Positions 153 through 54,021 of a stretch of 64,000 nt of DNA are shown piece by piece. A program made the position numbers and the translations under genes. Location of the stretch: the NCBI RefSeq assembly GCF_964355755.1, contig NC_092675.1, forward strand, positions 17,642,912-17,706,911, given 5' to 3'. This DNA is from Antedon mediterranea (taxonomy: Eukaryota > Animalia > Echinodermata). A model generated the notes under the pieces. That model was given only the letters and a program-made list of their open reading frames with translations, was not told the origin of the DNA and made no database searches. Position 1 is the stretch's first letter. Each line of letters begins with the position of its first letter.

Positions 153-1408
153 CCTTTGTTGGTCAGTGTCCATTCCCATGGGCTGATGTCAGTACATGTA
201 ATGGCTACTCCAGCTCATGTGTCCACAATGGAGACTGTCCAACCAACCAAATGTGTTGTGAGAGTGGTTGTGGAAAACAATGCAGAGCTTCTGAAGGTGT
301 TACATCAGGAACTACTACAGACACTAACAAAGCTGTTGTTACAACCAACGCCTTCTTGAACAGTAAGATGAACTGGATTTTTTGGTCACTATTATGTCCT
401 TTTTCAATTTCTGCTTAAGACTGTAATTTATTTTACTATGAAATAAACATGCTTTTAAATTTATAATTTCAGAGAAGACAGGAATGTGCCCAGCTGCTAA
501 ATATCTTCCTTGCTCTTACGTGCAAGAATGTGCTGTGGATTCCGATTGTACCGGAGAAAGCAAATGTTGTAACAATGGTTGTGGATTTGTGTGCACTGGA
601 CCATGGACCAGCAGTAAGTATTATGATGTATAACATTCAGAAAATATTGGTTTACTTCAAGAAAGGTAAAGTTCTTTATAAATTTGATTTTGTTCATTTC
701 AGCTAAATATGGTGTCTGTCCACGTGCTAGCGTGCAAGATGTTCTAACCAATGCAGCAAGCTGTACAACAGACATGAACTGCCCAGGCAACAGGAAATGT
801 TGTAACATTGATGCTACACAGAAAGCTTGTGTCAATGTCTGGGAAAAAGGTAAGATATGGTTCTTTCACCAGCTTCCAGGTAATGGTGATAGCACTCCTG
901 ATGGTTCACAGGAACATGTACCTTCCATATTGTTTGATTGTCAATTTGAGTGCGTGATTAGTGAAACTAATTATATTTTAGAAAGATGGAAATATTTAAC
1001 TTTTAAAAGGTTTTGATCATACAAATCAAATCAATCTTTTTATTCATCAATACAATACACATAACAAAATGAAAGAGTAATACATTTAATGTAGATCAAA
1101 GAGACCTCCAAGAAACCACAAGGAGGAGGCCCATTATAAACTAGTTTCAATAATGTTGAATGTGGTGCATGATAAAAAATAAACAACGGCAATTACCAAT
1201 CACCATTACAATAGTACTATGATTATATTTGCATATTTTGTAGTAACCAGTGGTCAGTGTCCATCATATACCAGCCTAGAGGTGACATCATGTGTGTATA
1301 CTGATGAGTGTGCTACTGATGTAGACTGTTTGATTTATGGAACTGGTAGAAAGTGTTGCTCAACACCATGTGGTGGCACCAAGTGCAAGGTTGCTGATGT
1401 CTATCCAT
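153..1408 (+). CDS. Four WAP (four-disulfide core) domain exons of the giant gene
   Basis: Exons 153-362, 473-613, 703-849, 1244-1408 each give G-x-CP...C...C-x-x-D-x-DC...KCC-x3-C-x3-C, e.g. KTGMCPAAKYLPCSYVQECAVDSDCTGESKCCNNGCGFVC. Confidence 0.9.
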
Positions 1409-4400
1409 GTAAGTCAATATCTGTACACTGATGTGATGACCCTGCTAGGTTTATACAGGTTGCCTTTCCAGAAATATTGTTCCTGAAAACAGAAAGAAAA
1501 GGGATTGCTATACAGATAGGTATCTACATCACCACTGTTAGTTTGTTTAGAATCTATTCAGGTCGGAAAAGCAGGCGCGGATATCAATTTCTTAAAGAAT
1601 TGTAAAACGTTCGGCGTTTTTCCCAGATACATTCTGGATTATAAATGTTCCTCAACTTCCTATCTTGAGTTGAGCACACACTACACCACTTTCTCTTGTG
1701 TGAGGTCCTAAACACGCCCTTGCATATTCTGTCTTTATGTGTGTATCTTACAACCATTCACTTCTAGAAAATTAAATAAATAGTTATGCATGAATGACTT
1801 CCTATTGTTTCCAGCATGTATGTACAAAGGCAAACAATACGTCCACCAAGACTTCTGGTCGCCAGACAGTTGCACAGTCTGCAAATGCTGGTCCGGTACT
1901 GCTAGGTGCACACAGAGGAAATGTCCACGCTACGATGCCACTAAATGTCAATCAGTCTACCGTGATGGTCAGTGCTGTCCAGATGTATACTGTGAATCAC
2001 AGAATGTCGTCGGTCAACCTGCTGGTAAGCTTAAAATTGCATTGGTCAACCTGCCATTGAAGAAAATGTAGATTTGTACATGCAAATATTTTTTCTGTAG
2101 ATGGTTTACTTTTGAATATCTATTGTAAGAAAAATGTTTAACTAAGCCACTATTTGAGTAGATCATCCTCCATAGTGGCCACTGGCCTGAGGTTGTCCTC
2201 CATTTGTGGTCACTGAGGTTGTCATGGGCTTATAGAGATAATGTTGTTATCAGAGTTTAGTGGTGCATAATCCTCATAAAATTCACAAAAATCACTCTTG
2301 ATTACACATTATGTTGCTATATCATATCTTCACTTCTTTTTCATATTTTTTTTTCTAGTAAACTATTTATGATATCTTCATCACTTGTAGTCTTCTTGTC
2401 TTTCTACCCAACTTTGTAAAGTTTAAATTATCTACTGGTTCATCTTTTATAATTCATCCCTTGCTTGCTTGATACATTTTTGTTTATTTTTTAACTAGTA
2501 AAATGTACAGATCAACAAGGACTTAGCTATCAGAATGGCGATGTGTGGTATCCTGATATCTGCAGTGAATGTCGATGCATTGATGGTCAAGTATCTTGCT
2601 CCAATTACAAATGCTTTACTGAATCACCACAGAATACAACTGGATGTACAGTTATCAACGTCCCTGGAAAGTGCTGTCCTGAAATCAAATGTCAAGACAG
2701 TGAGTGTTAAATGGTTAACTTTAGTTTCTAATGTTACAAATTTAAATATGTTGTAAGCATTAATAAATTAAAACACTACATTTGCAATGATTCCATTATA
2801 TTTAGAGCCTTTTGAAAAAAAAAGAGATTAATATATGTTCTTTTTATCATATCTGATAGGTTGTGACTTCTGAAAGGAATCATCACTAATATGTTTTATC
2901 ATCAAATAATTCCTATAATATTAATCCACCTAAACCTAAGATTAACCGAGCCTTCTTAAAGCTCTGTCTACACTATCAAACTAGTTAAAAAAAAAAAAAG
3001 TGTGATGTGCTCAAATATGGTGGTGATATGCCCAAATATGGTAATGATATGACATCATCATGTTTGTCTTATTCTTAGCCTGTGTTGACCATGCTGGAAA
3101 TCTACGATATGAGAATGACCAATGGATGATTGAAGACTGTGTGACCTGTCGATGTTTCAATGGTAAAGTTAGCTGTGTTAGTGAAGTTTGTCCAATGCAT
3201 CATGACCCATCATGTGAACTGAGGAAGGTCAAGGGTCAATGCTGCTCAGATGTCTTCTGTCCAGTGACTATTAGTAAGTTACCTACCTGCGTAGAATCTT
3301 GTAATTTTAGTCAATCTATTAACAAATAAAATCAACATTCTATTGGTTTGAGTCGAGTGGCTGAGCGGTTAAGACAGGGGCACTGCAAAGCATAGCTATA
3401 CAACTGGCACAAGTTTAAGGAACCCTTGATCATTGGGATAAGGAATAGGATAGGAATATTTACTAACAGCACAGTTGTACATTTCTTATTAATATTGTTT
3501 TTGGTTTTTTTTTAGATCCATCTAGGATGTGCGTTGACGGTGCCAACTCATACGGTGATGGTACCGAGTTCACTCGTGGAGCCTGTGAGAAGTGTCTTTG
3601 TATGAACAGGGTTATTGAATGTCAAACAATTGAATGTGCCGCTGATACCAACCCACTCCTTGCTAACTGTTTGAAGGTCAACATTGAAGGAAGATGCTGT
3701 CCTGAGGTTGTTTGCAATCAAGAAGGTATGGTGCAAAATAGGAAATTTAATTTCCACTTTTGAATGAACTTTTATATTATGAAGCTTTTGATTTTGCAGC
3801 AACCTAGGACTAGGAAGTTGTCATATGGAGGTACTATTTGCAAAATTTAGTTTTGCAATTGGGTCAGGCCTAATTTGATTGATTGTCCATTGATTGTCTG
3901 CTATCAGAAAAATGATTTAATGGATTTGAATCTTTATATTGGTGATGTTTTTCGGAGAAAAAAAATCAATTTTACAGAGCTTGACAATACTTATGACAAT
4001 ACAAATGACTTCATAAGTCATGCATAATTTGCATAAAGACCTAGATCATTGCAAATCGAAAACGCCATATTGTCACAGATGCACAAACCTTATGTGCAGT
4101 TAAATAGTGTATGGTGATATGATATCCCCATTCTTTGCATTTTGGCTGTGCAGTGTAATCATCTCCCAATTTTAAATTACTTATTTATCTTTCACTAGCT
4201 GGCTTGTGTACCCATGAGGGCAGTCAATATTTTGACAGCGAGACCTGGCAACCAGATACCTGCACTCTGTGTACTTGTGAAAAAGGAGTAACTAAATGCC
4301 ATGTGATGTCATGCCCACCAATCAAACAAGGTTGTACCGCTCAGTTCGTTGATGGTAAATGCTGTCCACAAATCACATGTCAATCAAGTGCTGTCAGTAA

Positions 4401-7400
4401 GTTAAGCTTAATATGAGGTTTAGATATATATACATAATTACACATACTGTAGAACCACTATTAAGGGGACATTTTCCGGGCCTAACAAAGTTTCCCTTTA
4501 ATAGTTTGAAAGTTCAAAGTACAATTAGTGTCAATTACTTAGGATAGGAAAATTCTCAATTTTTAACATAACCAATTTTGACGTTTGACTCCAACCCCTA
4601 ATCAGTTAAAATTGTAAATTTATAGTCTCCAAAATAACATTATTGCCTGAGGAAACACATGAAGGCTGATTAAGAATGTGATCAACCGTTTTTTAACTTA
4701 ATATTTAAAATTTTAATTATTGTCTGAAAACAAAGTTTTCAAGCAATGGCATCTTAATTTCGTCTGATACTAATTTGGCTTTTTTAGCTGCTCTGTGCTT
4801 TAATGAAGGCACCTGGAGAAGTGAGGGTGACACTTGGAACCAAGGCCGATGTGATGTCTGTACCTGCACTGGTGGTGTTGTCACCTGCAATCCAATGACC
4901 TGCCCCAGAGTTCAAGCCAGTGCTGGTTGCCATGTTGTCCAACATAATGGATTCTGCTGTCCTGTCAAAGTTTGTCGAGGATCTGGTGAGTTTAAATTTT
5001 ACAGGATCAAATAGATATTATACTATCCAATCGAATGCGAAATCAACTGTGCATTGTTATTATTTATAATGTCATGTAAATTACAATTATTCTATCTTTT
5101 TTTAAATAGATATGCAATGCGTCACTCCAGAGTTAACTATTGCCAATGGCGAAAACTACACCATCAGCAACCCACTACCAGCCGAGTCAGGCCATGTATG
5201 GTACTCACCAATGACTGTAACTGAGCGTGCTCACTGCACCTGCAACATGGGACGCCTAACATGTACAAGAAGTGCTTGCCCTGTTGCTCAGTATCCATGC
5301 ACTGAACAGCCATTAGCTGTTGGTGCCCAAGGCTGTGCAAGCATTACTTGCCCTTTTGGTAAGCTATGCCAAGTGTTATAGAGTATCTTTTTCAATTATA
5401 TTTAGATTACCAATCATCTGAAAACGAGGATTTCAGCTTAAAGTGTTAATCTCTTTCATATTTTGTTATTGTAATTTTATATATTGAGTTCATCTTGTGT
5501 TTTATGACATACTTATTTTGATTGATTGTTATTTCAGTGAAACCAGGTGTATGTCCATTCCCAAGACCAGGATTCCTAGGCTCATGTGATAACCAATGTA
5601 ACTTAGATTCTGACTGCCAAGGTGCTACCAAGTGCTGTAGTAATGGATGTGGTACTGAATGCTCTACTCCATGGAGAGAAGGTAACCAATCATTAAGATT
5701 TAAACATGTAGCTACAAAAAGCTTAATATGTGCTAGCAGGCTAGGTGTGGGTGGCAATATTTTAGATATCTGACAACAAAATGTGATGTGCCCATATATG
5801 ATGTCATATTACTACCATATTTAAGCCCCAAACTAGTTTGATAGTACAGACAGAGCTTTATAATCAGTAAAGTTCAGCTGAGTGGAAAGTCTTAAAATAT
5901 TTCCTAATTTTGAGTCAATCAACTCTATTTGTGTATGCAGGTGATTAAATGTTGCGATCCAGATCCTGACTCTTTTTTAATATATTACTAACTAATTCCA
6001 TTATTGTCAAAGGTTGTGTTGATGAAACAGGAAGTGATCGAACAAGTGGTGATGTCTGGTACCAAGATCTCTGCACAATCTGCAAGTGTGTCAATAACCA
6101 ATCCATCTGTGAGGAACAGCAGTGCCCCGAGGTACCTACTGGCTGCTCAATCAAACTGGTTAATGGAAAATGTTGTGGAGAGATTGTCTGCCAACCATCT
6201 TCCAATGCACAAGGTATACTTTTATTTAGAATTAATATACAGCTGATGACTGTGAGTTGTATTGAATATTTGAATTCAATAAGAACAACAAACTTATATA
6301 TAGCTTACAATGTCTCTTTTATAAAATGCCTTTTCTAACTAGAAACCAACAACGAAATTGAAGGTAAATAGACCTAACTAGCCTGCTTATTAGTAAAAAT
6401 GAATCCTCTTGTAGATTTTTACTTACTGGCTTCACATTTTAATTTTATTGGACCAGAGTATTTCAAATATACCATTCAATCATCTTGACATTTTATTTCA
6501 ATCTCTTATTTTTCCCCACAGTTGTGACCTGTAGCTATGAGGGCCAGACCTACATGCCTGGCAACACCTGGATCGTTGACAGCTGCACCAGCTGCCGATG
6601 TACCCCACAAGGCCGTACTATATGTGACAAACAAATATGTCCAGAAACAAGTAACTTTGGCTGCCGTATGTTATACGTAGCTGGAAAATGCTGTCCTGAG
6701 AAGGTCTGCAGAGAACGTAAGTTGTAATATTGCCAAGACATGGCACAATGATGTTAAATGATACATTTTAAAGTTGATTGGCATAGTACAGTCACAATAC
6801 AACCAATAAAAAAGCAGTACCTTATTATTTTCCAATTCAAAAGGACACTTTTTAAAATATATGAATACATATATTTTTTCTTTATGTCACAGCTAAAAGC
6901 TGTCTGTATGATGGTGTCTACTACCTTAACAGCGAAAAATTCTATGTTTCTGCCTGTGAAGAATGCCAATGCTTAAACGGTATTGTGACATGCCAGAACC
7001 AGACTTGCCCCACACCAACAGGAATGTGCACTTATGAAACACCAGTTGGTGTTGATGCTGATTTCAGTTGTTGCAAGAACATCACATGCCCTCTAATCGG
7101 TAAGTTTTTATATGTAATGAACAAAAGATAAGATACAGTATCTATATTGTTGTTTGTGTCTTTATTATCATGAGCAATATAACAATGATATGATCAAATT
7201 TGAGGACATAAGCGTATCCACCTCTCCAAACCAGTTTCTGTACATTTAACTAATTTCTAACATGTGTTTTCTTAACCTTTTATTAACACTTTGACACCCA
7301 AGACTTTACTGTAAAACGGTAAAGAGTGTCTCGAAATATCAAGTCGCAGATCTATCCAAGTTTTCTATATCTACAGAAATGTTTTCAGATTTTCGAGTAG

Positions 7401-10400
7401 GATTCTTCATCTAGAAAACTCATCTCATCTTCAAAAAGTGGGTTTTATTAAATATTTCCCAATATATATATAGTGTGTAAAAACTTGCTTATTTGATATT
7501 CTTATGTTATTGACTATCATTTTTTTGACAGCTCCTGGTCAGACCTGCACATACAATGGTATGACATATAACTACAATGAATTGTTCATGCGTGATGCTT
7601 GTACCAGTTGTAGATGCAATGCTGGTGAGGTTACCTGTACCACTACCTCTTGTCCTCAAGTGAATCTTGAGCCTGGTTGCCGTGCTGTTCCAGTTTTTGG
7701 AAAGTGTTGTCCTCAAATCACATGCCGAGATGGTAAGTAATGGAAAGTATGATGCGAATAATTAGTTGTTTGACATGGGATCTGCCATATCTACTCAAGG
7801 ATTACAGTTAGGTTGAAAACATGATGAGCCTAGCAAAGAAAATAATTAACAGTTTAAAATTAAAAGTTTAATTAAGATACTTAAAGCCCAAAATTTCCAT
7901 GGCCCTAAATTTTCGCGATTTTACATTTTCAACTATTTCGAATGTAAATAAACATTTTAGTTGAACAGTGGGCGATGCATGTGTTTAATAGATTCTTAGA
8001 TAGTGAACACCCCCATAAAATGAATGTACTTTACCAATTTTTGTTTGTTTCTACAACAACAATGGACGCGACGCCGGCCGGATGGATGGATGTGAATCTT
8101 TAGAGAGCTTGCGCATGGTGATGGTATTTTTTCTACGCACAATGTAGAATAATTTTTCAACTTATCTTATGATTTAATGGACAAAAGACTCGTCAAGCAA
8201 GTACGCTATACATTAAAAAAAAATTTACCTAAGAAATGTCATAAGCTTTTTTATTCCAATTGGAACATTTTTTTAGCGATCAATCCTCCACACACGGCGG
8301 CACACTTCTTGATCACTGAGGAGGAATTGTTTTGAGCGAGGCGCAGGCTGAGTATGGCCTAGCATTTTCGGTCGGTTGCAATTTATTTTAATGTTTTAAT
8401 TACATCTGAACAAACAGTATAATTAATCGGGGATCGTAAATGTTTCAAAGAATACACAATCAAAAGTTTATCGTAACTATTTTGCCTTGCTAACTAAGCC
8501 TAGGCTAGGCCTGATAGATCGACTGTAAAAAACCTTACTGCAAATTTTGAAATTTTCGCGGACTTTTTATTTTCGCGGGCTCTTTATTTGTTGTTGTTGT
8601 TCAATTGCAAAAGTAGCGAAAATAAAAGGCCTGCGACAATTTTGGGTAATTAACTTGTTTCTTTCAGTTCATAGCTGCATTGAATCAGGAGTTGAGCATC
8701 TAAATGGAGAACAGTGGACCAAAGACAAGTGCACCACTTGCCGATGTGACCATGGAATGATGCTTTGCACCAAAAGAACATGTCCCATGCCAAGACCTGG
8801 TTGCCAGTATGACCTCACTGCACCAAATCTGAACCAATGCTGTGGTGACATCAAATGCCCAAGAAGTCCAGGTAAGTTGGACAGACAGACAAACAGAACA
8901 AAAAGACTAAGACATTTTCCAATTAAAGCTTGATGAATACTAATATGATATGTTTCAAATTAAAGATCACACTATATTCTAAAGCACATTTTAATCAAAA
9001 GAAAACCTTTTGAAGAAAAAATGTAAACAACAACTATTTGTATACCATTTTATATGATTTATTATTATTATTTATAGTATTTGGTAAATTTTCAATAATT
9101 TTATTTATTTATATTGGGTTTTTTATTTAACCTGTTACAACCTATTTAACAGTATATACCTAAAGGGAATGTAAATTATACACTTCTAAGAATTAAACAA
9201 AATTAATTTGTATTATATAGGATACAGAAAATGTACCGATAAAGCCACTAATGTTCGTTACAACCACGGAGAAGTATGGATGCGTGACTCATGCACACAA
9301 TGCCAGTGCCGTCATGGATACACCAAATGCAATGTATTTACCTGCCCAACCAACGTAGCTGATGGATGCCGCACCCTGAACATTGAAGGACAATGCTGTC
9401 CTCATGTGCTTTGTGATACAGGTAAAGTAACCGTATGCTTTGTTAGTCAATTTTAGGAGATCATGTACATATATAGAAAAATACAGAAGAACCTTCATTT
9501 TACTATTAAAGAATCACTATGCTTTTACAGCGAGTTACAATCGGTTAAGAAAGTGAGAACGTAAATACGTAGCCATGACATCGGCTAGGGTTCGAGGCTC
9601 ACTCGCTCCATGATTCTGGTGGTAGAACGAGTCTTCTCGGATAATGACTATAAACCGTAGGTCCTGTGTACACATCTCATGTGCAATTTAAAGAACCTAG
9701 TACATCTTTCGAGATGAGTAGGGGGTTACCCTGGTGTACTAGTACATCACAGCCACTGAACACAAGTGGGCCTTCTGGGAAACCAGTCGTTGATTGAAGA
9801 AGAAGTCGCCCAGTATAGATAAAATATTTTGATTCAATTATTAGTAAATTTCTATTTTAGTGAAAGTTGGTCAGTGCCCTGCCTACAACCCATTGATGGA
9901 TGCTGTCACCGTTGATATGTGCGGTAGTGATGCTGACTGTGTTGGTAAATCCAAGTGCTGTAATACTCCAGCTGCCAGAACATGTATGTCTCCAGTTATA
10001 CTAGGTAAGTTGCTAAACATTCTACAATACAGTATAGTAGGTTGTAAGCTTGAACCTGGACATTAGGCAAAAGTGCTTGATGCAAAGCAGAGCAGAATAG
10101 ATGCTAGGTATAACCTTTTAATGCACTACAGGCTGTTTCATGAGGAGTACCACAATCTGTAATGCTTGGCTCTGTACAGTATATGTATTAAAAATATATA
10201 TATTTCATTGATTTAAGGACATTTTTTTTATTCTATATAAAATTATAAATATAAAATCTTTTGTACGTAAAACTTCAAATGAAGGTTGTTTTCATTTGTA
10301 ATTCTTTAATATTTTCATTCCAGAACGACCAGGTTCATGCCCTAACACACAACCAACCTCCGGTGTTCTACGAAAAACTTGTGTCACTGAATGCACAGCA

Positions 10401-34400: not shown

Positions 34401-37400
34401 ATGTCTGTTTTAATATTTACCATAGTTACTTATGTTATTTATATATTGTTTTTTTAGCCGATTATATTTCATTGTATGTTTACATGTATATATGCCAATC
34501 AAATTTAATCTTCATCTGAATTCAAATATCCTTTTAAACAACTTTAACCTACTCTCTTTCTTTGATATTCAGCACCACTATTCACCTGTCCAGCCGTTCC
34601 ACGAACTACTCACAGCATGTGTGTTAACTTCTGTTCGATGGACTCAGATTGTCCATCTGGTGCCTACTGCTGCTCTAATGGATGTGGAAAGACATGTTTG
34701 ACTGCAACATCTAATGGTAATATTTAAACCAACAATTTCATTGCAAATAAAATATATTATGATCATATGCTGTACACTGGTCGGAGATCCCCACTTGGAA
34801 AACTGAAATATTTGCAAAAATTTGTGAAAGCATAGCCAAACAAGTGACATGCTATAAAGATTCTTTAAAATACAGACTGTTTTAATACTGCCCTTTACAA
34901 TAGAGGGCGCTATTAAAACAATCTTATCTGCATTTATAGGAAACAATGGAAGCTACGCCCTTTTGCAGGAAAAAAAGTGGAAAATGCGTTGAGAAATGCA
35001 TTTTTGTCCCTTTAGTTAACAAGCTAGGGCCCAGTAGTAGAGCCTAAATATTTTTACTGTGAACATTAATCATGAGAAATTATCTAGGACATGAGTTTAC
35101 CTGGACTCATTAGAGTATCATACATTTTAAAGGGGTTTTTTATGTTTAGAATGTATTGATGAACATGGTGTTTCTCATGCTTCTGGTAAGCTGTGGATGA
35201 GAGATAGTTGTACTCGCTGCTCTTGTGATCAGGGAACCACGTCATGCACCGCATTCAAGTGTGATCCAATCCCACAAGGATGTCAACCATACTACATCAC
35301 TGGACAATGCTGTCCAAGCGCTAGTTGCCGTAAGTCTTTCTTTTTCCAGCCACTTTCACAGATAACTTATTCATATATTCCTGAATATGTACATACGTTG
35401 ATACAATATTGGTGCTGGTAGTAGTGATGTCATATTTCAACAGCAAAATATACAAATTTAGATCATGTGTTTGATAAATGAATACATTAAACATAATTTA
35501 TTTAATAAATGGATATGTATAGTAAAATTTTAGTTAGTTTTAGGTATAATAGACAACATGAAATGGAATTCCTCCAACTGAATTATGATTGCACATTTTA
35601 CATGCATTTTATGTGGTTGCCTGTTCCATCGTCCGTTTCAATTTTGAGTTTTAACAAAATATCCGATTTACATTTGTAAATTACATGCAATAAGTTCTAA
35701 ACATTTTAAAGAAATGTTAATTAAATGGCATTAAATCTGCAATTTTTTTTTTAAATTACCAATTCAAGTTCCAAATTTTCCATTCTACTACATATGAAGT
35801 CATCTACGATTTATACTTACAATTCCGTTTTGATTTTGATCAACTTTATTTGACATTGCAGCCCAGAAAACTTGTTTGACCCAGGATACTTGGTCTGAAG
35901 ACACCTGCACCAACTGTACATGCGTTGATAATGCAGCAGTGTGTACTAAACAGATGTGCCCAGAGATCAAGCCAGGATGCACCCCAGAATACATCCGAGG
36001 AAAATGTTGTCCAGATATGAAATGCCAAGGTTAGGAGTAACTACTATTTATATTTATGTATATGCAATGTCATTTTGAAATTAAGAAGTTGTGTAGTAAC
36101 TAAGGAACATTTATTTTCACAACTTTTTTTTTATATGAAGGATGCCATTTGGGCAATGGTCAAAGAATGCGCAATGGTGAATCATGGAATAAGGATAAGT
36201 GCACAACATGCCGTTGTGAGAATGGCAATGCAGTCTGCTCAACCGCTACATGTGAACAACCCAAACCAGGATGTAAGGTTGTTAACTTAGTCAATCAATG
36301 CTGTCCTCGTATTGTATGTCCTACTGAAGGTAATGTTTGTTTAAGAATCTTTGATTGTGTTTAATTTAATTCGCCTTGTCCTCTTGATGGGATATTAAGC
36401 TGTTGGTGCTGTGTACACCACTGCAAGTGCTACACAAAATAAATTGTATTATTTATATTCATATTTAATAGCCAGTACAATTCATATCTGTATTTATCAT
36501 GTTACAAAAATTTCTCCTAACCAATGAAACAGTTTAATAATTCTTCCTTAGATGCATATGAATCAATTAACATGTATTGTGTCCATATTATAGGATCTGG
36601 AACCTCATCATCAACATTGGGAACAGTTGGAGAACAACCCTGCTATGCTCACAAGAAGATGGTGCCAACAATCAACATGATGGGTGTGTCCATCCCAATA
36701 ACTGGCTTCTTTAACCCAGTTTGTACTGCTAACGGATTCTATGAAGGTAAACAGTGTCATCCATCAACCGGTTTCTGCTGGTGTGCTGATCCATTTGGCA
36801 AGGAGATTGCCAACACAAGAACACAACATGGTGGCTTAGTCTGTGGTGAGTGTTTTATCTGTAATTACAACAAAGATATGAATGTTTGTTCATTAGAATA
36901 TTTATTTATTAAACTTTATCACTGCACATAACAACAAAACAAAAAAGCAGCGAAAAGAAAGGAATGAACAGGTGACAAGCACATCTATCCACATACTCCC
37001 CCCCCCCCCCTTAAAATACACATAACATTACATAGAATATATACCATTATATATCTTTTAAATTGCATTACTTCATTCATAATAGTATATTTATTAAAAA
37101 TAGAGTAAAACTGAATTGTGTGGTTTTTACATGATAAAATTTACAGTGTATAAAAATATCAATCTAAAACACATAAAAAAGACAAATAAAGTGGCAAAGC
37201 CCAGAATGACAGAAAAGCAATGCAGTACAAGGGAAATGTAACATATATTTTAAAGTTACAATTCTGTTAGACAACGAAAATGCACACTACTGTAGCTCTT
37301 TTATTAGTTTTGATGTTTATGTGTCTGTATTTATTAAGTAAGATAAAACGGAAAATGTTTTGTATCCATTTTTAAGATAAAGTTATTAATATTATTGATT

Positions 37401-40400
37401 ATTTCCCAGTCTTTTCCATGATTTCTGTCACCCTTGGTCCTCTGTCATTCCTAACATCATCATGTATGAGATTAATAAAAGTTTTTGTTTTTTAGAAGCT
37501 CAAATAACAAATGTTCTTCAGTTATATTAATTCAAAAACGGAACAGCCATCAATTTGCAAGTTTTGTAAATCTCTGTCTACACTATCAAACTAGTTTGAC
37601 AAAAAAAAAATGATGTGCCCAAATATAGTAGTGATATGCTTAAATATGGTAGTGATATGACATCATCATGTCCATATATGGGAACATCAAATTTTTTTGT
37701 CACATACAATTTTTGTAGACAGAGGTTTAGATATAAATCATTACAGTTGTTTTGTTCTTTAATGTTTGCAGATCAATCAATGTGTTTGGACCACCTGAAC
37801 AGCCCACGCATTCATGGAGATCAATGGAAACCTGAATCCTGCACCACATGTACTTGTGAATATGGACAGAGTGCCTGTCTACCAGTAGAATGCCCTGTTG
37901 TTCCACAGGGTTGTGTTATTACCTCAAATACTGGATGTTGCCCTGAGTTCACTTGTGGAGAAGGTAAGACCACTTTACTATTATTACCCTATTAACTTTC
38001 TGTGACAACAATATGTGATGTTCCCATACATGATGATGTCACATCACTACCATATTTGAACATATCACTACCATATTTGGACACATCACACTTTTTATCA
38101 AACTAGTTTGATCTGAAGACTGATCTTTAGAATCAAATATTACTGTTTTCAATTTTACTGTTTATATTTTCTAGGATGTACAGTAAATGAAATCCACTAT
38201 GCCATTGGAGAGTCTTGGAACGCTGCAAACTGCCAGAAATGTACTTGTATGGCCTCTGGCCAACAGTGCTTGTCGCGTACCTGCCAAGTATTCACTGACC
38301 CAATTCCAACAGAATGTCATGCTGTCTGGACTGATGATGTATGTTGCCCTCGTACTGTTGTATGCAACGGTGGTAAGTTTAGAGTTTTTTTCTCATTAAC
38401 ATCACCAATATCTTTTTTCATGTACATAATTTTAATATCATGTGTGCTTAAATTTATATTGTCACTCATTGATAAACAATATTAAATAGTGCAGTATAGA
38501 AAGGTAATATTTCATTCAGATGCATTAAACAAGCCATTACAGTCATGGGATTCAGAGTAAAAAAAATCAATATTTAGGTAACTTTACATCAAATTTGATG
38601 GATGTTTCTTTTTTCGTGTATAGATTGTCCAGTTGACAAGCCACAATATGCTTGTTTTGTCAACCCCTGTGACAATATTCGTTGCCCAATGAACCCTAAT
38701 GCCATCTGCAAGCCTAACTACTGTGGAGGATGCAACGCTGTATTCTACAACAGCAACAATGTTCCTGTTCAGTGTACAAGTAAGTATAACCTAGGGCTGA
38801 GCAGTAACAATATACAGTGAGTTATTTTCCTAAAATGCAACAAAAAGAGAACTGAAAATAAATTTGTTGCCTAGAATACAGATATTAAACAGTGAGGTTT
38901 CTTTATTCTTTATTTAAAGTGCAACAAACTTAACCATAATATTGTGAATGACTAAATATTGGAAAACTTAATTATGTACTACATTATGGTATAGCCTTAA
39001 AGCCTCAACAGGCTCAAACCTATTTAATCAGTGTTGAATTTAAACAGGATATTATTTTGTTTACTTACCCACAATGCTTTGTTTAGATTGTATGTCAGCT
39101 ACTGGCAGAATGTATCTCCCTGGTGAAGATTGGATTGAAGGAAGCTGTAGACTCTGTGCCTGTAACAGTGTAGGTAGATCAGTGTGCTCTAACTCCTGTC
39201 AGCAACCACAGACAGCTAGTAAGTGTGCTGAAGTAACTTAAAGATTGAAAGAATGATATTGATCCAAAGAAAGTAAATACTTCATTTGCAAATCTAGTAA
39301 TTGGGGTGTTACAGATCTATTATGGAACGAATGCATCCCAGGTTACTTATCATCTTGTCGTAATGGATCTGAGACTGTCATTCCTTTGGCCATCCATTTG
39401 GCAGGGCTATAATATACCAGAACACCAGATTAGCCACCTACTCTTCTAAAAGATGCCATTGGTTTCCAGAAGTTTACACTGGACCTTGGGTTTAAAATCC
39501 TTATCTAAAATGACTTGTCTACCACCAGAAGAGAGAAGAATGCCCTGAATCTATGCCAATATTATGGCTAAGGTTTGCAGCACCCTGCCTAAACCGCTCC
39601 ACCACCGGAAGTGGTTTGTTTTTTATTAATTAATAATTAATTATATTCTGTTGGAATCTGTGTTTTCAAGACTACAGAGTTTTATAGAAAGTGGGCTAAT
39701 TGGATTACAGGAGTAAAGGGTCTTTAACACCCAATCGAACATCAATGTTTCGTTTTCATGCAACTACACGCATATCGTTTGGCACATAGCCGCGTGGAAC
39801 GTCGTGAAAATGAAACATTGATATTCGATTTGTCTGACCGGAACTATGCGGGAACAGATGTGAAAGACCCTTAAAGGCAGAAAAATCAAGCCCTGAATAT
39901 ACACATGCTTGTTGCATTTGTATTTAAGATACTAATATTTTGGATTTTTATAGCCTTTTTTTAAACTTTATTGTACAAAGCGCTTCACATAGGATATACA
40001 CTTCATTACACATCAATTTTAATATTTTTCAGGCACCAAAACTTGTGTGGATATCTCAGGACAGGTTTACTACGTCGGTCAAAAATGGGAGAACACAAAA
40101 TGCCAGACCTGTACCTGTGAAGCTAGTGGTCAAATCTCTTGCGCTAGCAAATGCAAATATTCTCTAACTGACCCATTGCCAGCAGGATGTAACTTTATAT
40201 GGACAGACGATAAATGTTGTCCAATCCAACCTGTTTGTAATAATGGAGGTAAGAACAATTTTTGTTGATACATAATAATAATGATATTAATGTTTTTAAT
40301 TCCATTGTGCTTAAAGTACAATATAGTTCAACCAATATTTAATGTTTGACGAGTAAAATTTGTTTCAATTTTAATTTTTGGAGGACTGAATGAATTCTAT

Positions 40401-43400
40401 ACTAGTCACAAAACAATTAATGAAAACCTGATGATAATTTCTGAATTTAAAGTGTGTGACTTATAAGTGTTATGATTAATAATTGTTTTGTATACACAGA
40501 GTGCCCAGCTGGCGTTCCTACTACACCATGCCTCATAAATCCCTGCCGTTTTGCCCAATGTCCACTTAACCAAGCTGCAAGGTGTCACAGTAACTACTGT
40601 GGTGGTTGCAATGCTGTGTTTATAGACCAAAACAATTTCCCTGTCCAGTGTACTGGTGAGTTGAAGTAAATTTCTTTTCTTTTTGATACTCCAACAACAA
40701 CAACATTCCTTTAGAAACTAACTTGCTAAGACGTGCTGTCTTGATCTTGATACTGACAACTTTTACTAATTTTTATTAAGTATACCATTATAGGCCTTGG
40801 CAAGATACTAAATTACACCATGAGGTCATTGATAGTAAAACTTAAAAGTTGCCTGATTTTTTATACCTTTACTTGGTGACAGAATGTGTATCCAGCTGGG
40901 GCAAGGAATTTTCTAGTGGAGAAACATGGATTGAAGATGGCTGCAGAGAATGCCTCTGCACAAGTAAACAAACCAAGACTTGCCGTACCATCCAATGCCC
41001 AACAAACACCGATCCTATACCAGATGGATGTCGTCTTGTGCCATCTACTGAAGGATGTTGTAACCTCAAAGTCTCTTGTGGTATGTACATTGAAATGTTA
41101 TGCATACAAAGTGTGTGTGGCTGAGCTAAGACAGCAGAACCGTAATCCATAGCCATATATTGGCAAGGGTTCAAGGCTCACCATTTACTCTGGTAATAGG
41201 TTCTGGTGGTAGAACAGGTCTTCTCTGGTAAGAACTATAAACCGTAGGCCTAGTGTACACAAAATGTCTGTGTGCACTTTAAAGGGAGTTGTGCTAATTC
41301 ACACACAGAGTGTAGAGCACCGTAGTTGACTGCACTGCACTTACAGTACATGGCGTGACCTTTAGAGGAGAAGCAAATGAACTGATTCATTATGTCAAGT
41401 ACCCCAAGTACTCATTTATTAATTTTAAATTATCTCTAAAGCAATATTTTAAAAGTCGGAGAGAAACTTTGTTACTTTTTAAATCATTTTTTTTATCTTG
41501 TGAAATGTCTATGTTATTATAGTATATATTCTTGTTATTTGTAATTTTTTGTGTTGGAGAGACACACCTTACCGGTGACAGCGTTTTGTTTAATGCTTTT
41601 GTCTCTCCTTGGCTTCGTGTCTTGTACTTCATATATATATATATTTCTATGTTTTGTAATTATTATTTCATGTTTATTGCTGAAATGAATAAAACAAAAT
41701 AAATAATAAATAAGTCCACATCACTATGAGGAATGATCATATACAAATGGATATTATCAATTTTTGTTGTGTCATCAACTGATATTTCTCACTTGTGTTT
41801 TTGTATTTTAGAATGTGAAGTAACCTCTGGTTCAAACTACTGCTTTGCATGTGCATTAGCTACATGTCCAGCTAACCCACAAGCTGCCTGCAAAGTGAAC
41901 AAATGCAATGGGTGCAATGCTGTCTTCTATGATGAGTTTGATAAGCCAGTCCATTGCCAATGTAAGTTTTATTTATCATTTAATGAGAACAAAAGGATCA
42001 ATTAGACCTTCACTAATTTTCAATTCTTACCACTGCTTTCGTTGTGTTGGACTGATTGCAATGCATGGTAATATGGTCCTTTCATATGGGTTAAATTACT
42101 TTCTAGAATCTGACCTCCAGATGAACTGTGCAGGGTAAATTAGACCTGGACGCGTAGTACGCGAATGCAATGCTAGCGTGTTTGGAACAAGTTTAGAAGG
42201 AAACATCATTGGCCACCTAGCTGCTGTAATTTGTTATGGCTTAGTCCAGGGCAGGTTTAAAGATAGTCCGGGACTAAAGATAGTTCTCTTTCATGAATAC
42301 AGCGTAGCAGATTATTAAAAAAACAATTTGGAATTAATTAAAATAATAAAATAAATATAAAGATGATAAAACACATACATACACTGTATTTGTGTCTAGA
42401 GTAGAACAATTTAAAATTCCTTTTTTTTTTTTCAGATTTGCCTCCACTTCATAACTGCCCTGCTGGATTAGATCACATGCAATGCTTCATAAACCCTTGT
42501 GCTAATGCTCAATGTGCTGCTAGACCAGATGCCCTCTGCCGTCCAAACTACTGTGGAACCTGCCATCCAGAATTCTTTGATACCAATGGACAGCTTGTGA
42601 ATTGTGATACTCGTGAGTTTTGAATTTTTAAAAATTAATCAAATTCATATTACTCACACATATGCTAGTTCTCCGATATATATTTAATCGTCAGCCCAAG
42701 TTTATAAGCACACATCATTATTATAATTTGAGTTTTAAGATACAATACAAATCTTTGGAAAGCATGGATCGCATATCTGAGAATCACAGCAACAAAGGCA
42801 GTATAACTCTATGCGATATAGTAAATAAGGGTAGTAAATGCATCATGCATAATATTATAGTATTGCTATTTTATATTTGTATAAAAGGTACTTTTAAAGA
42901 TGTATTGTCCCCCTGAAAAATTTATTCTTAACAATTTTTCTGTTGAATATGCCATTTTAATGTCATTAAATAGTTATCCACTTGACCAAAATTTTGATCG
43001 AAAAAAAAAAAGTCTTTACCTAAAAAAATGTAATTTAAAGCAAAAAATAGCTGCCAGCCTATGGGTTTTTGGTTGAATTTAACCATTTATTTTGTAATTT
43101 TATAAGTGAAGACATTCATTTTTCCTTTTTTTTTCTACAGAAATGATTAACTTTATTATAGCTACAAAATAATCTATTCTAAGTCTCTTTTTATTAATCT
43201 TTATTTTTCATGTTTTTGGGGGACAATACATCTTTAAATTAATAAAGATTGGTAAACATGAGTTTTATTTCCATAAAAATTCCAAAATGTCATTTCTGTT
43301 TGAACGTCACAGAACCTGAATGTGCTCGTGCCTGTCTAACAAACCCTTGTGAGACTGCTCAATGCCCAGATCATCCAACTGCCATCTGTAAACCAAATTA

Positions 43401-46193
43401 CTGTGGAGGATGTGTCGCAGAGTTCTTTGATGAAAACAATCGACAAGTTACATGTTCAGGTTAGTCACACAAGCTCCTAGGACTAAGTATATTATTGACG
43501 ATGATAATTATGTTAAATAACAAACGAATTCTAAACTGCCCGATTATATACTGAAACAAGAAAGAGAAAGCTGCCCCAACTGATATTCAAACTTGGAATC
43601 TTTTGCTTGATATGCAGATGTCCTAACTGTGCTTTCATGATATTATTCAATTTCGAGTGGATAAAGAATCCTAACGGCGTGGTATGGCGGACCAACACTA
43701 GTTCAAAATGATGATTAATGTGAAATAATAAAACAAATTAGTATAGTTTGTTGGAGAGGCACTTAATCAAACAGCTGTTTATTCAAATAGAGCACTTGTA
43801 GAATCTACTGTATTGGTGCTACTTTTTACAATTTTGTACATAGTATGGTTCTTTGTGGGTAAACATTAATTTAATATATCAATTTGCAGCCAATGTTTAT
43901 GTATCCCAGAATAACAGTTTGCTAATTAAACTAAGAATTAATGACATTGTTACAAAACTAACGCTTTATTATTAATTACGTTTTCAGAATGTCCACCTTC
44001 GAAGCCCAAACACTGGTGTTTCTTTAACCCATGTAATTCAGAGACTTGCTCCAACTATCCAAATGCTCTATGTCGACCAAACTCTTGCGGAGGTTGCACA
44101 GCAGAATTCTACAATTTGAATAATGAAATACTACAGTGCAGCGCGACTCCAGTGGGTCTACAGCAAGACGTCATGACCACAGAAATACCAGTCCAAGGTA
44201 TTGTCTTTTGAAACTGTATTTATGGTTTTTTTTACCATATTTTCTAATTTTTGTTTTTAACTATTGTATCGATGATGAATAAATTAGACATGTATAAAAG
44301 TGTAAACAATCAATCTTCATTAACAAGTTTAATTATTAGCCTATTAAGAATGGTCCTTTTTCATTGGAGAATGCTTTGTAAGGTGTAGAAAGCTCTCTAG
44401 TTGTATAATACATCTATGGACTCCGTTGTTGCATTACTGAATATATATACACATTGATACATACAGTACAAAGGTATAGTTCGTTTCCTAATTTTTGCCC
44501 AATGTTCTCTCAGAAACCGAAAGCCCATGTAATCCACTGATCGTAAAGTACTTGACCAGTCCAATTGAAACCAGTTTCACACCACGTTGTGCATCTGATG
44601 GCTACTTCTCACCAAAGCAGTGTGATGGTAGAGGATCCTGTTGGTGTACTGATCCAAGCGGTCAACAGGTCAATAGCTTCATTAATGGTGAAGAACAGGC
44701 CTCCAACCTCGAATGTGCTGACAGTAAGTCATTTTTTTATTTGATTTATTTTTATACCATACATAAAGAAAACAAACAAAGATCAGGGTTAGCCTTCTAA
44801 ATCACTAAAAGGGCAATACATTCTGAGGGCTCTCCTTAAACATAAAACCAATGCATTCTGACAAAAAAAAATTGATAAATTGTAGATAAAATACAAAAAA
44901 AAAAGGAAGAAAGGTTCGTAAACAATTTCTTTCGAAGGTACCGGTAAGATCTTGAGGTTAAAAAGATAAAATTGATAAAAAGCTGAATACTAAAAATATA
45001 TTATTAAGTCTATGTACATAGAGTTATTCATTAACAATTTCTTTCTTTATATCCTCATTTTATTATTCTAGTTTATATCTGGTTTTTCTCATAAATTGTA
45101 AACATTCTGGGGAAAAACTGCTAAATAATATTGTATATTTTATATCATTTAAAAAAGCAGAATAAGTCAGTATGATTTTGTAGATATCAAATTCATAAAT
45201 CACCCTTTTACGCCTTCTATAATTCATAAAAAAAAAAATTCATATCATAGTTAATGTTTGTCCACAGCACCATGTCTTCAAGCTCGAATTGAAGCACAAA
45301 ACAAAATAAATCGTGGAGAACAATCTGTGTGGATGCCTGACTGTGACTCGGAAAGTGTCTTTGAGGAAGAACAATGCAATGATGTAGACTGCTGGTGTGT
45401 GGAGTCAGATGGAACTAAAATTCCATATTCAGCAAGACCAATCAGTGTTGACATCTCTTGTGGTAAGCTATATTCATTGAAAAGTAGTTTTAGTTTTTAA
45501 TAATACATAAGGCATATAAACACATTTTGAATTTTAAATGTTCTTAGTAATAATTATTCATATATTATAACTAGACAAGATATAACAAGACATAAAGGCA
45601 ACATTATAAAGTTGTTAACCAAACCTCGCTATTTCAATTCAAATTCACTTAAATTCTTGTTTTATATATATATATATATAAATTTTACACTCAGTACAAA
45701 AAAAACTAACATTACATTTAGATTATCTCTAAAACAAAATTTGATTCCAGGCAAACACATTTAAAATACAATTTTTTTTAAAAAGGGTACAAAGCTGAGA
45801 CGATCAAACGATTTTAAAAATCTATTTAACCTTTAACACTATTGTTTTCTTTTGTTCTGAACACAACCCTATATATCCATCCCTAAAACACACAGCATAT
45901 ACAGTAGGTGTATTAAATGATAAATAAAATAATAAATATCACTGCTTGCCAGTCTCTGTCATCAAATGATAGGAACAGTTGATTAAATTACACTCTTTAA
46001 TTACTTGCAAGGCATGTATATATTTACTTTAATGAAAATGTCTTTTTTTGTTATAGATGAAATTTGTTTTGGTCAACTACCCTCTTCTAATAATGTGTGT
46101 ACTATGAATGATTCTTGTGATCCTGGTAATTTCTGTCATAAACTTGAAGGCAAACAACAAGGACGATGTTGTAAAATTCCAAGGAACATTTAA
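153..46193 (+). CDS. Giant multi-exon cysteine-rich modular protein (WAP / VWC / antistasin / thyroglobulin type-1; kielin/chordin- or CRIM1-like domain content), 5'-partial, probably secreted
   Basis: About 82 GT-AG bounded exons join in frame; each internal exon I measured is a multiple of 3 with phase-1 ends (e.g. 153-362, 473-613, 703-849, 1244-1408, 1815-2024, 12435-12632, 33927-34115, 45268-45462). Last coding exon 46057-46196 contains TAA at 46191-46193. No start codon or signal peptide in the window, no transmembrane segment at the C terminus. Rough size in window >4,000 aa. Confidence 0.9.
1815..9421 (+). CDS. Thirteen VWC (von Willebrand factor C) domain exons with one interspersed WAP exon (5538-5681)
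   Basis: Repeated C...Y-x-x-G-x-x-W-x-x-D-x-C-x-x-C-x-C-x-x-G-x-x-x-C...CP...C...G-x-CCP-x3-C in ~200 bp exons, e.g. CTHEGSQYFDSETWQPDTCTLCTCEKGVTKCHVMSCPPIKQGCTAQFVDGKCCPQITC. Confidence 0.9.
9530..9815 (+). mobile_element. tRNA-derived SINE, dispersed family (other copies approx. 27515-27697 +, 41115-41285 +, 32700-32915 -, 39340-39612 -, head only 3355-3430 +)
   Basis: B-box-like GGTTCGAGGC after an A-box-like TGGCTGAGCGG head, followed by shared body TTCTGGTGGTAGAACGAGTCTTCTCGGATAA-GACTATAAACCGTAGGTCC...GCACTTTAAAGAACCTAGTACATCTT seen in several diverged copies on both strands. Confidence 0.75.
9861..12132 (+). CDS. Four WAP domain exons
   Basis: Exons starting at 9861, 10324, 10833, 11986, e.g. 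KTGVCPMIQPQGICQSNIDVCSLDNECTANKKCCFNGCFMEC. Confidence 0.88.
12435..34115 (+). CDS. Array of about 43 antistasin-like domains on 41 exons
   Basis: Each ~90-210 bp exon encodes C-x(4-9)-C-x(3-7)-C-x-x-G-[YFL]-A-T-[DN]-x-x-GC-E-I-C-x-C; exons 12435-12632 and 20841-21047 carry two domains each. Confidence 0.9.
14552..14677. mobile_element. PIF/Harbinger-like MITE family A, complete copy
   Basis: TIR AGCTCTGTCTACA(C/T)TATCAAAC / GTTTGATAGTGT-GACA-AGCT with TTA on both flanks; internal CAAATATGGTAGTGATATG repeats. Partial copies near 2960-3065, 5775-5860, 13270-13385, 16295-16343, 16665-16690, 29146-29170, 37995-38128. Confidence 0.8.
22197..22299. mobile_element. MITE family A, complete copy
   Basis: AGCTCTGTCTACACTATCAAA ... 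TTTGATAGTGTAGACAGAGGT, flanked by TAA/TTA. Confidence 0.8.
22840..26104 (+). mobile_element. Head-to-tail pair of non-autonomous Helentron/Helitron-like (HINE/DINE-1-type) elements
   Basis: 5' subterminal repeat AGGTTATATGCAT (22840-22852) with adjacent inverted copy (22857-22869), (TTTA)n, ~1.4 kb body, 3' subterminal ATGCATATAACCT, hairpin AATTCGTCA-TAG-TGACGAATT and terminal CTAG at 24682-24685; body and 3' end repeated at 24686-26104. Confidence 0.8.
31639..32140 (+). repeat. Intronic minisatellite, ~59 bp unit with ~28 bp sub-unit, about 8 copies
   Basis: Recurring TAGACCAAGTCATAAATGATATTAAAACCACTATTGTAC(C/A)A(G/A)GTCACTA starting at the splice donor of the exon ending at 31638. Confidence 0.9.
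33726..33869. mobile_element. Short Harbinger-like MITE
   Basis: Imperfect TIR AGCTTGGTTCCCATTAAGACACAA / TTGCGTCCTAGTGGAAACCAAGCT; TTA on the left flank. Confidence 0.6.
34573..38372 (+). CDS. WAP exon (34573-34716), five VWC exons and a thyroglobulin type-1 exon (36594-36845)
   Basis: Thyroglobulin motif PVCTANGFYEGKQCHPSTGFCWCADPFGKEI (QC...CWCxD); VWC and WAP cysteine patterns as above. Confidence 0.88.
37570..37726. mobile_element. MITE family A, complete copy
   Basis: ATCTCTGTCTACACTATCAAAC ... GTAGACAGAGGT with TAA/TTA flanks and two internal ~22 bp repeats. Confidence 0.75.
38624..44197 (+). CDS. Six exons of an unnamed 8-cysteine module interleaved with three VWC-type exons
   Basis: Exons 38624-38779, 40500-40655, 41812-41961, 42436-42612, 43313-43459, 43988-44197 share C...C-x-x-NPC-x4-CP-x-x-P-x-A-x-C-x-x-NYCGGC-x-A-x-F-x-[DN]-x4-V-x-C; VWC exons at 39087-39218, 40033-40248, 40883-41080. 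Confidence 0.85.
39717..39871. mobile_element. Short Harbinger-like MITE
   Basis: TIR AGGGTCTTTAACA / TGTGAAAGACCCT with TAA on both sides; inner inverted repeat ATCAATGTTTCGTTTTCATG / CGTGAAAATGAAACATTGAT. Confidence 0.7.
42898..43233. mobile_element. Kolobok-like non-autonomous DNA transposon
   Basis: Perfect 16 bp TIR AGATGTATTGTCCCCC / GGGGGACAATACATCT with TTAA on both flanks; AG...CT ends with TTAA duplication fit Kolobok rather than piggyBac (CC ends). Confidence 0.75.
44514..45462 (+). CDS. Two thyroglobulin type-1 domain exons (44514-44723, 45268-45462)
   Basis: FTPRCASDGYFSPKQCDGRGSCWCTDPSG and WMPDCDSESVFEEEQCNDVDCWCVESDG match the P-x-C...QC...CWCV signature. Confidence 0.88.
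46057..46193 (+). CDS. Terminal coding exon, lustrin/WR1-like six-cysteine module
   Basis: EICFGQLPSSNNVCTMNDSCDPGNFCHKLEGKQQGRCCKIPRNI-stop; C-x-G-x-x-P...C...C-x-x-G-x-x-C...CC pattern. Family assignment is from memory of the pattern only. Confidence 0.65.

Positions 46194-52845: not shown

Positions 52846-54021
<1,176 letters not shown>

What the first reader, a model, noticed from the sequence alone, without database searches (positions are those of the whole stretch)
153..46193. A >4,000 aa 'toolbox' protein concatenating several protease-inhibitor folds and growth-factor-binding modules
Seen: about 84 cysteine-rich modules in one open reading frame, arranged in blocks WAP4-VWC7-WAP-VWC6-WAP4-Antistasin43-WAP-VWC3-TY-VWC2-(module X/VWC)-TY2-terminal module, with more upstream of the window. 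Established: WAP and antistasin domains inhibit serine proteases, thyroglobulin type-1 domains inhibit cysteine/aspartic proteases, VWC domains bind BMP/TGF-beta or mediate multimerisation; CRIM1 combines VWC and antistasin but with only 6 and 4 copies and a membrane anchor. I know no characterised protein with this architecture or copy number. Inference: a secreted broad-spectrum anti-protease polyprotein or a disulfide-rich matrix/mucus/adhesive scaffold.
Basis: partly seen in the sequence, partly recalled or inferred. Interest (0 to 1): 0.85.

Follow-up and report, generated by a model that had tools for sequence, protein, structure and literature searches.

The report
Ancient giant disulfide-bead protein of deuterostomes
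This feather-star gene encodes a predicted secreted chain of about 4,900 amino acids built from some 95 small cysteine-rich modules, whose order is kept in acorn worms and amphioxus, and it likely serves as a long extracellular scaffold with a few protease-blocking modules rather than as a pure inhibitor cocktail.

Summary
My model is identical (4,209 of 4,209 aa) to the C-terminal part of a 4,927-aa RefSeq 'uncharacterized' protein of the crinoid Antedon mediterranea, which begins with a signal-peptide-like stretch. Spliced contigs of a probable RNA run tile exons 5-82 in register. The architecture is not a one-off: a second crinoid, two hemichordates and amphioxus carry the same blocks in the same order, and sea urchins carry colinear pieces. 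The two crinoids and two hemichordates each have 43 antistasin modules, with a four-module register shared between Antedon and Ptychodera. Only 3 of 43 have Lys/Arg at the inhibitory P1 site. Furin sites and a membrane anchor are absent. This favours an uncleaved extracellular scaffold over a broad inhibitor polyprotein, but no function is shown. 'Module X' is a widespread domain with no Pfam family; its predicted fold weakly but repeatedly matches the snail carboxypeptidase inhibitor NvCI. I found no paper on the family.

The parts
153..46193 (+). Exons 1-82 (as seen in the window) of one spliced gene; 4,209 aa; 718 aa more lie upstream
153..1408 (+). 4 WAP exons (last four of a block of six; exon 3 has 6 Cys)
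1815..5358 (+). 7 VWC exons (exon 11, 5110-5358, degenerate with 8 Cys, E 0.04)
5538..5681 (+). WAP exon
6013..9421 (+). 6 VWC exons
9861..12132 (+). 4 WAP exons (exon 19 has 6 Cys)
12435..34115 (+). 43 six-Cys antistasin modules in 41 exons, four-module register (long loops at modules 8, 12, 16, 20, 22, 24, 28, 32, 38, 40); exon 52 degenerate with 4 Cys
34573..34716 (+). WAP exon
35150..36329 (+). 3 VWC exons
36594..36845 (+). Thyroglobulin type-1 exon
37772..38372 (+). 2 VWC exons
38624..44197 (+). Six 8-Cys X modules (exons 71, 74, 76-79) interleaved with one half and two whole VWC exons; seen only in the two crinoids (hemichordates, amphioxus and Diadema have one X here)
44514..45462 (+). 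2 thyroglobulin type-1 exons
46057..46193 (+). Terminal 6-Cys module, conserved to amphioxus, weakly lustrin-like (E 0.007-0.04, below cut-off in 3 of 3 orthologues); stop codon
46194..46526 (+).

Best explanation
This is one conserved deuterostome gene for a predicted secreted, roughly 530-kDa chain of about 95 cysteine-rich modules that likely stays uncut and likely works as a long, protease-resistant extracellular scaffold (matrix, mucus or coat), with a minority of modules likely blocking proteases that attack it. Shown: gene structure, module order, orthologues, absence of furin and GDPH motifs and of a hydrophobic anchor, P1 residues. Inferred: secretion (hydrophobic N-terminus), disulfide pairing, length and register mattering for function. 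Untested: polymerisation through a seventh, conserved cysteine in each of the four N-terminal thyroglobulin modules, which lie upstream of the window.
For: Same block order in Antedon (T2 X W4 T2 X W6 V7 W V6 W4 A43 W V3 T V2 X... T2 Z), Ptychodera, Saccoglossus (terminal module not in its model) and amphioxus (A19) (my profiles miss the degenerate seventh VWC of Antedon). VWC modules keep their positions: nearest tree neighbour has the same index in 18 of 18 (Ptychodera-Saccoglossus) and 15 of 18 (Ptychodera-amphioxus). 43 antistasin modules in 2 crinoids and 2 hemichordates; long-loop positions overlap 9 of 10 between Antedon and Ptychodera, spacing rho 0.67 (37 pairs), same-index similarity 0.453 against 0.368 +/- 0.010 in 20,000 permutations and at most 0.411 at other offsets. 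All 5 solved antistasin inhibitors hit have Arg/Lys right after the second Cys, the P1 site of hirustasin (PMC3014083); Antedon has 3 of 43, and 5 of 32 three-residue loops have K/R/L/M/F/Y against 46% of 716 loops in other hits (Fisher p 5e-4). No R-x-K/R-R or GDPH in Antedon, Ptychodera, Saccoglossus or amphioxus; longest Cys-free stretch 34-48 aa. Precedents: WAP/antistasin proteins in sea-star footprint glue (Sfp3, 8, 15; PMC9382459) and the leech cocoon protein (cited in PMC7851590).
Against: No tissue, localisation or biochemical data were available. 14 of 43 modules have Ala, Thr, Val or Ser at P1, which elastase-type proteases accept (own knowledge), and Lys/Arg is commoner in Saccoglossus (8 of 43) and amphioxus (5 of 19). 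Individual antistasin modules are not one-to-one between crinoid and hemichordate by best hit (2 of 43 in the tree; rho 0.27), so the equal count partly rests on register features, and the four-fold period inflates the overlap test (shifts of 4 or 8 give 6-7 of 10). Amphioxus has 19 modules without the long-loop pattern, so length is not fixed. Conserved order also fits a multi-ligand regulator. The comparison set of 716 loops is of uncharacterised proteins.
Confidence: 0.5

Rival explanations
1. A soluble polyvalent protease inhibitor of body fluid or mucus: WAP and antistasin modules against serine proteases, TY against cysteine proteases, X against carboxypeptidases.
For: Every module class except VWC has inhibitory members; diverse P1 residues could cover many proteases; P1 is the least conserved loop position between the two crinoids (18 of 30 the same, against 23 and 22 for P1' and P2'); a sea-cucumber antistasin/WAP inhibitor is cited in PMC11310086; X resembles NvCI.
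Against: Few Lys/Arg P1 residues, 8 of 43 with Pro; no processing sites; all 8 X modules are internal, whereas NvCI needs a free two-residue C-terminal tail (PMC5511257); strict order over 500 million years is not needed for a cocktail (inference).
Confidence: 0.27
2. A matrix-bound regulator of BMP/TGF-beta or other growth factors through its 21 VWC modules, like kielin/chordin-like protein or CRIM1.
For: 21 VWC modules with position-specific conservation; automatic names such as KCP.
Against: The names follow from VWC repeats only: the vertebrate kielin-like hit has 22 VWC and none of the other modules; many VWC modules do not bind BMP (own knowledge); this does not explain 43 antistasin modules.
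Confidence: 0.12
3. A dedicated adhesive of crinoid tube feet or larval attachment, related to sea-star footprint proteins.
For: Sfp3, Sfp8 and Sfp15 carry WAP and antistasin domains, Sfp6 VWC repeats (PMC9382459).
Against: Sfp8 and Sfp3 have FAMeT domains; Pfam found none in the Ptychodera or Anneissia orthologues or the window exons. The gene is kept in acorn worms and amphioxus, which have no tube feet.
Confidence: 0.06
4. The iodination matrix for thyroid-hormone synthesis in invertebrate deuterostomes (thyroglobulin-like).
For: Large, secreted-type, 7 TY modules; amphioxus form 305-357 kDa; the amphioxus hormonogenic protein is unidentified (PMC12992692).
Against: Tyr only 1.8-2.8%; C-terminus is cysteine-rich, against that paper's signature; none of its RefSeq/GenBank candidates for Branchiostoma floridae, B. 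lanceolatum, Saccoglossus, Ptychodera or Lytechinus matches an accession of this family that I retrieved; TY is a small part of the chain.
Confidence: 0.05

Closest known systems
Leech antistasin-type inhibitors (MEROPS I15: antistasin 1skz, hirustasin 1bx7/1hia, bdellastasin 1c9p; gigastasin 5ubm)
   Same: Six-Cys subdomain with C-x3-C loop, E 2e-8 to 0.26
   Different: Those are 55-137 aa with Arg/Lys at P1; here 43 tandem copies, 3 with Lys/Arg, 11 with longer loops
Sea-star footprint proteins Sfp3, Sfp8, Sfp15, Sfp6 (PMC9382459) and limpet P-vulgata_12 (PMC7333891)
   Same: Secreted, cysteine-rich, WAP plus antistasin (or VWC) repeats in extracellular glue
   Different: FAMeT/EGF domains or small size; no TY or VWC combined with antistasin in the passages read; sequences not compared (supplement not readable)
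Theromyzon cocoon protein
   Same: Antistasin-like repeats used in a structural coat (seen only as cited in PMC7851590 and PMC9382459)
   Different: Six antistasin/Notch-like repeats; none of the other modules mentioned
CRIM1 and kielin/chordin-like protein
   Same: VWC repeats; CRIM1 also antistasin (recalled)
   Different: No transmembrane segment here; the Latimeria kielin-like hit has VWC only among my six module types
Papilin and WFIKKN (recalled, not tested)
   Same: Extracellular mosaics of inhibitor folds whose main roles are matrix or growth-factor related
   Different: Kunitz/follistatin/Ig based; different modules and far fewer
NvCI, Nerita carboxypeptidase inhibitor (PDB 4a94_C, 5mrv_C)
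   Same: Top fold match for module X in two models and two programs (Z 3.6, rmsd 2.7, 42 aligned, 31% id; Z 3.1, rmsd 3.7, 43 aligned, 28% id); similar Cys and aromatic spacing
   Different: X has 8 Cys and a 2-residue instead of 10-residue hairpin loop; internal here, so no free tail; scores are below the level the tool calls reliable; no sequence match at E<=10

Membership tests
Antistasin-type serine protease inhibitors (I15) | Six-Cys antistasin domain (PF02822) | tested here: met
   38 of 41 exons above the curated cut-off, 40 at E<=0.01
Antistasin-type serine protease inhibitors (I15) | C-P1-P1'-P2'-C loop with Arg/Lys as in solved inhibitors | tested here: not met
   3 of 43 modules; 32 of 43 have the three-residue loop; other P1 residues may suit other proteases
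Antistasin-type serine protease inhibitors (I15) | Measured inhibition | not testable with these tools
   needs assay
CRIM1 | Single transmembrane segment and cytoplasmic tail (recalled) | tested here: not met
   Highest 19-residue hydropathy 1.29 in the model; chain ends in a Cys module
Kielin/chordin-like protein / crossveinless-2 | VWC array followed by a VWD domain (recalled) | tested here: not met
   No VWD in any window exon through to the stop or in Ptychodera/Anneissia orthologues
Kielin/chordin-like protein / crossveinless-2 | BMP binding | not testable with these tools
   needs binding assay
Gel-forming mucins, zonadhesin, SCO-spondin | VWD-C8-TIL units, GDPH site, long PTS region or TSP1/LDLa repeats (recalled) | tested here: not met
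   No such Pfam hits; GDPH 0; longest Cys-free stretch 40 aa
Thyroglobulin-like precursors (PMC12992692 signature) | Over 2,000 aa with multiple Tg1 domains and many disulfides | tested here: met
   4,927 aa, 7 TY, 704 Cys
Thyroglobulin-like precursors (PMC12992692 signature) | [quoted passage not shown] | tested here: not met
   Ends in TY-TY and a six-Cys module
NvCI-type carboxypeptidase inhibitors (module X) | Same fold | tested here: inconclusive
   Top hit but Z 3.1-3.6, E 0.7-1.0; no sequence hit
NvCI-type carboxypeptidase inhibitors (module X) | Free C-terminal tail after the last Cys | tested here: not met
   All 8 X modules of the Antedon protein are internal; 17 of 80 other X proteins end within 6 residues of the last Cys, some possibly fragments
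Sea-star Sfp8/Sfp3 adhesives | FAMeT domains with WAP/antistasin | tested here: not met
   No FAMeT in window exons or in the full-length Ptychodera orthologue; the 718 upstream Antedon residues were scanned only with my six module profiles

The most novel reading that the evidence does not exclude
An unrecognised ancestral deuterostome structural polymer: a half-megadalton chain that links to itself through extra cysteines in its N-terminal thyroglobulin modules and uses a fixed-register ruler of 43 repurposed inhibitor beads to set the mesh of a mucus net or matrix shared by feather stars, acorn worms and amphioxus and not found in vertebrates; its X module defines a widespread new domain family that is the missing kin of the carboxypeptidase inhibitor NvCI.
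Probability: 0.25. Interest if true: 0.85.

Novelty: new variant of a known kind. Interest (0 to 1): 0.62.

Why it matters
A 3,200-4,900-residue protein whose module order has survived since the common ancestor of echinoderms, hemichordates and chordates is likely a basic part of the ancestral deuterostome extracellular toolkit, yet it sits in databases under four wrong names and is split into several genes in sea urchins and Anneissia. It is testable now in sea urchin, amphioxus and acorn-worm embryos. Module X is an unclassified domain found from sponges and Hydra to amoebae and bacteria; if it is the NvCI fold, many short X proteins with free tails become candidate carboxypeptidase inhibitors.

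Tried and rejected
No whole genome is held for the window, so the 5' part comes from RefSeq proteins. No holder is on record as RNA; X1 is a guess, though its pieces stop at exon edges while DNA-like X2 runs through introns. A two-copy prediction for the N-terminal TY pair was not available, so there is no verdict on self-association. The ESM Atlas gave no answer for module X. Sequence search of PDB with three X alignments found nothing at E<=10. Several separate genes: rejected (continuous phase-1 frame, contigs across all block borders, single RefSeq model). Transposon or low-complexity artefact: rejected (Pfam hits, orthologues). Recent tandem amplification or concerted evolution of the antistasin array: rejected (within-protein non-Cys identity 0.32, at most 0.54; 43 of 43 one-to-one with Anneissia). 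One-to-one best-hit orthology of antistasin modules between crinoid and hemichordate: not found. No colinear orthologue from vertebrates, tunicates, sea stars, sea cucumbers or protostomes appeared among 11 hits of 643 candidates of 2,015-6,414 aa; split or short models would be missed and only 20 of the 150 hits were looked up by name, so absence is not shown. Paper searches: domain combination, 2 unrelated arthropod papers; antistasin+echinoderm, 11 listed; six accessions, 0; amphioxus+thyroglobulin+antistasin, 1; 25 of 1,231 deuterostome papers listed, none with 'antistasin'; Simakov 2015 supplements, 2 files held, 0 hits. Whether the 2,400-aa amphioxus protein of PMC3464141 is an old model of this gene could not be told (its alignment is an image).

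Full report
Gene structure. The window is AT-rich animal DNA. Only two ORFs of 150 aa or more exist, both downstream of the finding, and the unspliced stretch has 910-995 stops per frame. Cysteine-rich segments recur every 300-500 nt on the + strand. A codon and splice-site model trained on the window gave 82 exons, all phase 1 at both ends. After setting exon 7's donor and the last exon by hand, all 81 introns are GT-AG and the spliced frame is 4,209 codons ending in TAA at 46191-46193, with 611 Cys, 8 N-glycosylation sequons, no RGD, GDPH or R-x-K/R-R, and no hydrophobic anchor. All exons but one encode an even number of Cys, with two more Cys at exon junctions.

One transcript. Five runs hold part of the gene; none is on record as RNA. 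X1 behaves as spliced RNA: its listed pieces end at exon edges, while X2 gives continuous genomic pieces. Mapped on my model, the listed pieces of three X1 contigs have constant offsets (3, 2 and 7 pieces), and their lengths place them at exons 5-15, 16-32 and from the end of 32 to 333 nt past the stop; a fourth has 982 nt upstream of exon 1. Contigs do not prove a single molecule. The model is identical over 4,209 residues to RefSeq XP_071954539.1 and is the tail of XP_071954538.1, 4,927 aa with a hydrophobic N-terminus. The neighbouring hnRNP exon is 96% identical to Antedon mediterranea. RefSeq likely rests on the same genome, so it checks my exon calls rather than adding independent proof.

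Orthologues. A profile of the 43 antistasin modules against 1.84 billion representatives returned two proteins with 43 stretches: Ptychodera flava XP_070544252.1 and Anneissia japonica XP_033108270.1. A search with the latter added Antedon, Saccoglossus XP_006821660.1 and Branchiostoma lanceolatum CAH1246674.1, whose cluster of 12 also holds B. floridae, B. belcheri and hybrids. With profiles built from the window, the order T2 X W4 T2 X W6 V7 W V6 W4 A(n) W V3 T V2 X T2 Z recurs: n = 43 in both crinoids and both hemichordates (which have one extra WAP after module 17) and 19 in amphioxus (W3 in two blocks). Crinoids add five X and extra VWC modules near the end. Identity to my model is 78% (Anneissia) and 45-46% (hemichordates, amphioxus), much of it Cys, Trp, Gly and Pro. 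Diadema and Lytechinus models map as colinear pieces at 35-40%. VWC, WAP, TY and X modules largely keep their positions. Antistasin modules are one-to-one between crinoids (43 of 43) and mostly between hemichordates (27 of 43), but not by best hit between the two phyla (2 of 43 in the tree). Register survives: long loops at 8, 12, 16, 20, 22, 24, 28, 32, 38, 40 in Antedon overlap 9 of 10 with Ptychodera, long linkers recur every four modules, and same-index similarity exceeds all other offsets; shifts of four also score 6-7 of 10, so part of this is periodicity.

Inhibitor or scaffold. In hirustasin the residue after the second Cys is P1 (PMC3014083, passages), and all five solved relatives have Arg or Lys there. 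Antedon has Asn 8, Pro 8, Ala 7, Thr 4, Gln 3 and Lys/Arg 3; K/R/L/M/F/Y in 5 of 32 three-residue loops against 46% of 716 in other hits, after removing the family's own members and two unnamed look-alikes. Against this, small residues can serve elastase-type enzymes (own knowledge), P1 varies most between crinoids, and other orthologues have more Lys/Arg. No furin motif occurs in four full-length orthologues and linkers are short. The four N-terminal TY modules, outside the window, each carry an extra Cys (C-W/F-C-x3-C-G) in all five orthologues checked; they may bond within each pair or between chains, which is untested. I put an uncut scaffold with a partial protease shield at 0.5.

Module X. 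Six 8-Cys copies align at 43-57% with no Pfam match. Eighty homologues came from sponge, Hydra, jellyfish, rotifers, a nematomorph, molluscs, echinoderms, hemichordates, amphioxus, tunicates, amoebae and Myxococcota, often beside WAP, TIL, TY, Kazal or Kunitz domains. AlphaFold gives pLDDT 93.6 with a two-stranded hairpin. NvCI is the top match by Foldseek (E 1.0) and VIA-align (Z 3.6, rmsd 2.7, 42 aligned), and again for a Mytilus homologue (E 0.7; Z 3.1, rmsd 3.7, 43 aligned), whose last residue aligns with NvCI's Ala53. NvCI's Cys at 15, 23, 38, 51 and Trp42 (PMC5511257, passages) parallel X's Cys at 20, 28, 36, 50 and Phe40, but its hairpin loop is 10 residues, not 2. The scores are weak, the two models are related, and three sequence searches failed. 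NvCI inhibits through a free tail, which the internal copies here lack.

Literature. Seen as passages: PMC9382459 (also section 2.4; supplements not readable), PMC11310086, PMC7333891, PMC6780499, PMC5511257, PMC9966942, PMC3464141 (one supplement is an image), PMC13078365, PMC4729200 (2 supplement files searched), PMC10381214, PMC3014083, PMC7851590. PMC12992692: parts 1-3 of 9 and rows of its supplementary datasets; its Supplementary Fig. 10 was not seen. The leech cocoon protein and the sea-cucumber inhibitor were seen only as citations. Papilin, WFIKKN, CRIM1 and kielin architectures are recalled. Searches for the domain combination and for six accessions found no description of this family; subscription papers, bioRxiv supplements and other gene identifiers were not covered.

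Verdict. A real, well-supported gene and an apparently undescribed, architecture-conserved deuterostome family built from known modules plus one unclassified domain. It is a new variant of the secreted cysteine-rich mosaic kind; function remains inferred.

Noticed in passing
window 52876-54021 +: Intronless polyubiquitin of five units (fourth with Ala for Pro19, one extra C-terminal Leu), followed by a 263-nt duplication of its end
   Followed up: no
window about 55868-62406 +: hnRNP A/B-like gene; one exon 96% identical to Antedon mediterranea
   Followed up: partly
window 46806-47435 +: Reverse-transcriptase fragment just past the gene's 3' end (RVT_1, E 0.009)
   Followed up: no
window 22896-24243 and 24686-26024 (intron 44): Direct duplication of about 1.35 kb at 93% identity that makes this the longest intron
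   Followed up: partly
window 2957-3063, 13268-13378, 14549-14682, 22192-22307, 37562-37712, 38025-38112: Short intronic repeat family with 21-nt sub-repeats in both orientations and very high contig depth, MITE-like
   Followed up: no
window 32412-32583 and 31645-32073: An 86-nt tandem duplication that copies the acceptor and start of exon 60, and a 61/86-nt minisatellite in intron 58
   Followed up: no
window 49755-50577: Nested long inverted repeats, foldback-element-like
   Followed up: no
P0092 (XP_071961378.1) and P0098 (XP_033095823.1): A second giant crinoid family: Antedon 5,095 aa with 30-34 antistasin modules plus TY, Ig and FN3 domains; Anneissia relative with 11 TY stretches
   Followed up: no
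P0258, P0257, P0006, P0007, P0001: Other X-rich mosaics: Asterias X2 W X5 W27 X, Glandiceps X4 W3 T W19..., Styela X12 W X W, amphioxus X/WAP/TY/PEBP, Gordionus with 12 X alone
   Followed up: no
P0056, P0069, P0078-P0080, P0043, P0026: Module X also occurs in bacterial-type proteins (secretion-signal or TIMP-like domains) and amoebae
   Followed up: no
P0263 residues 75-553 (upstream of the window): Extra conserved Cys in the four N-terminal TY modules from crinoid to amphioxus
   Followed up: partly
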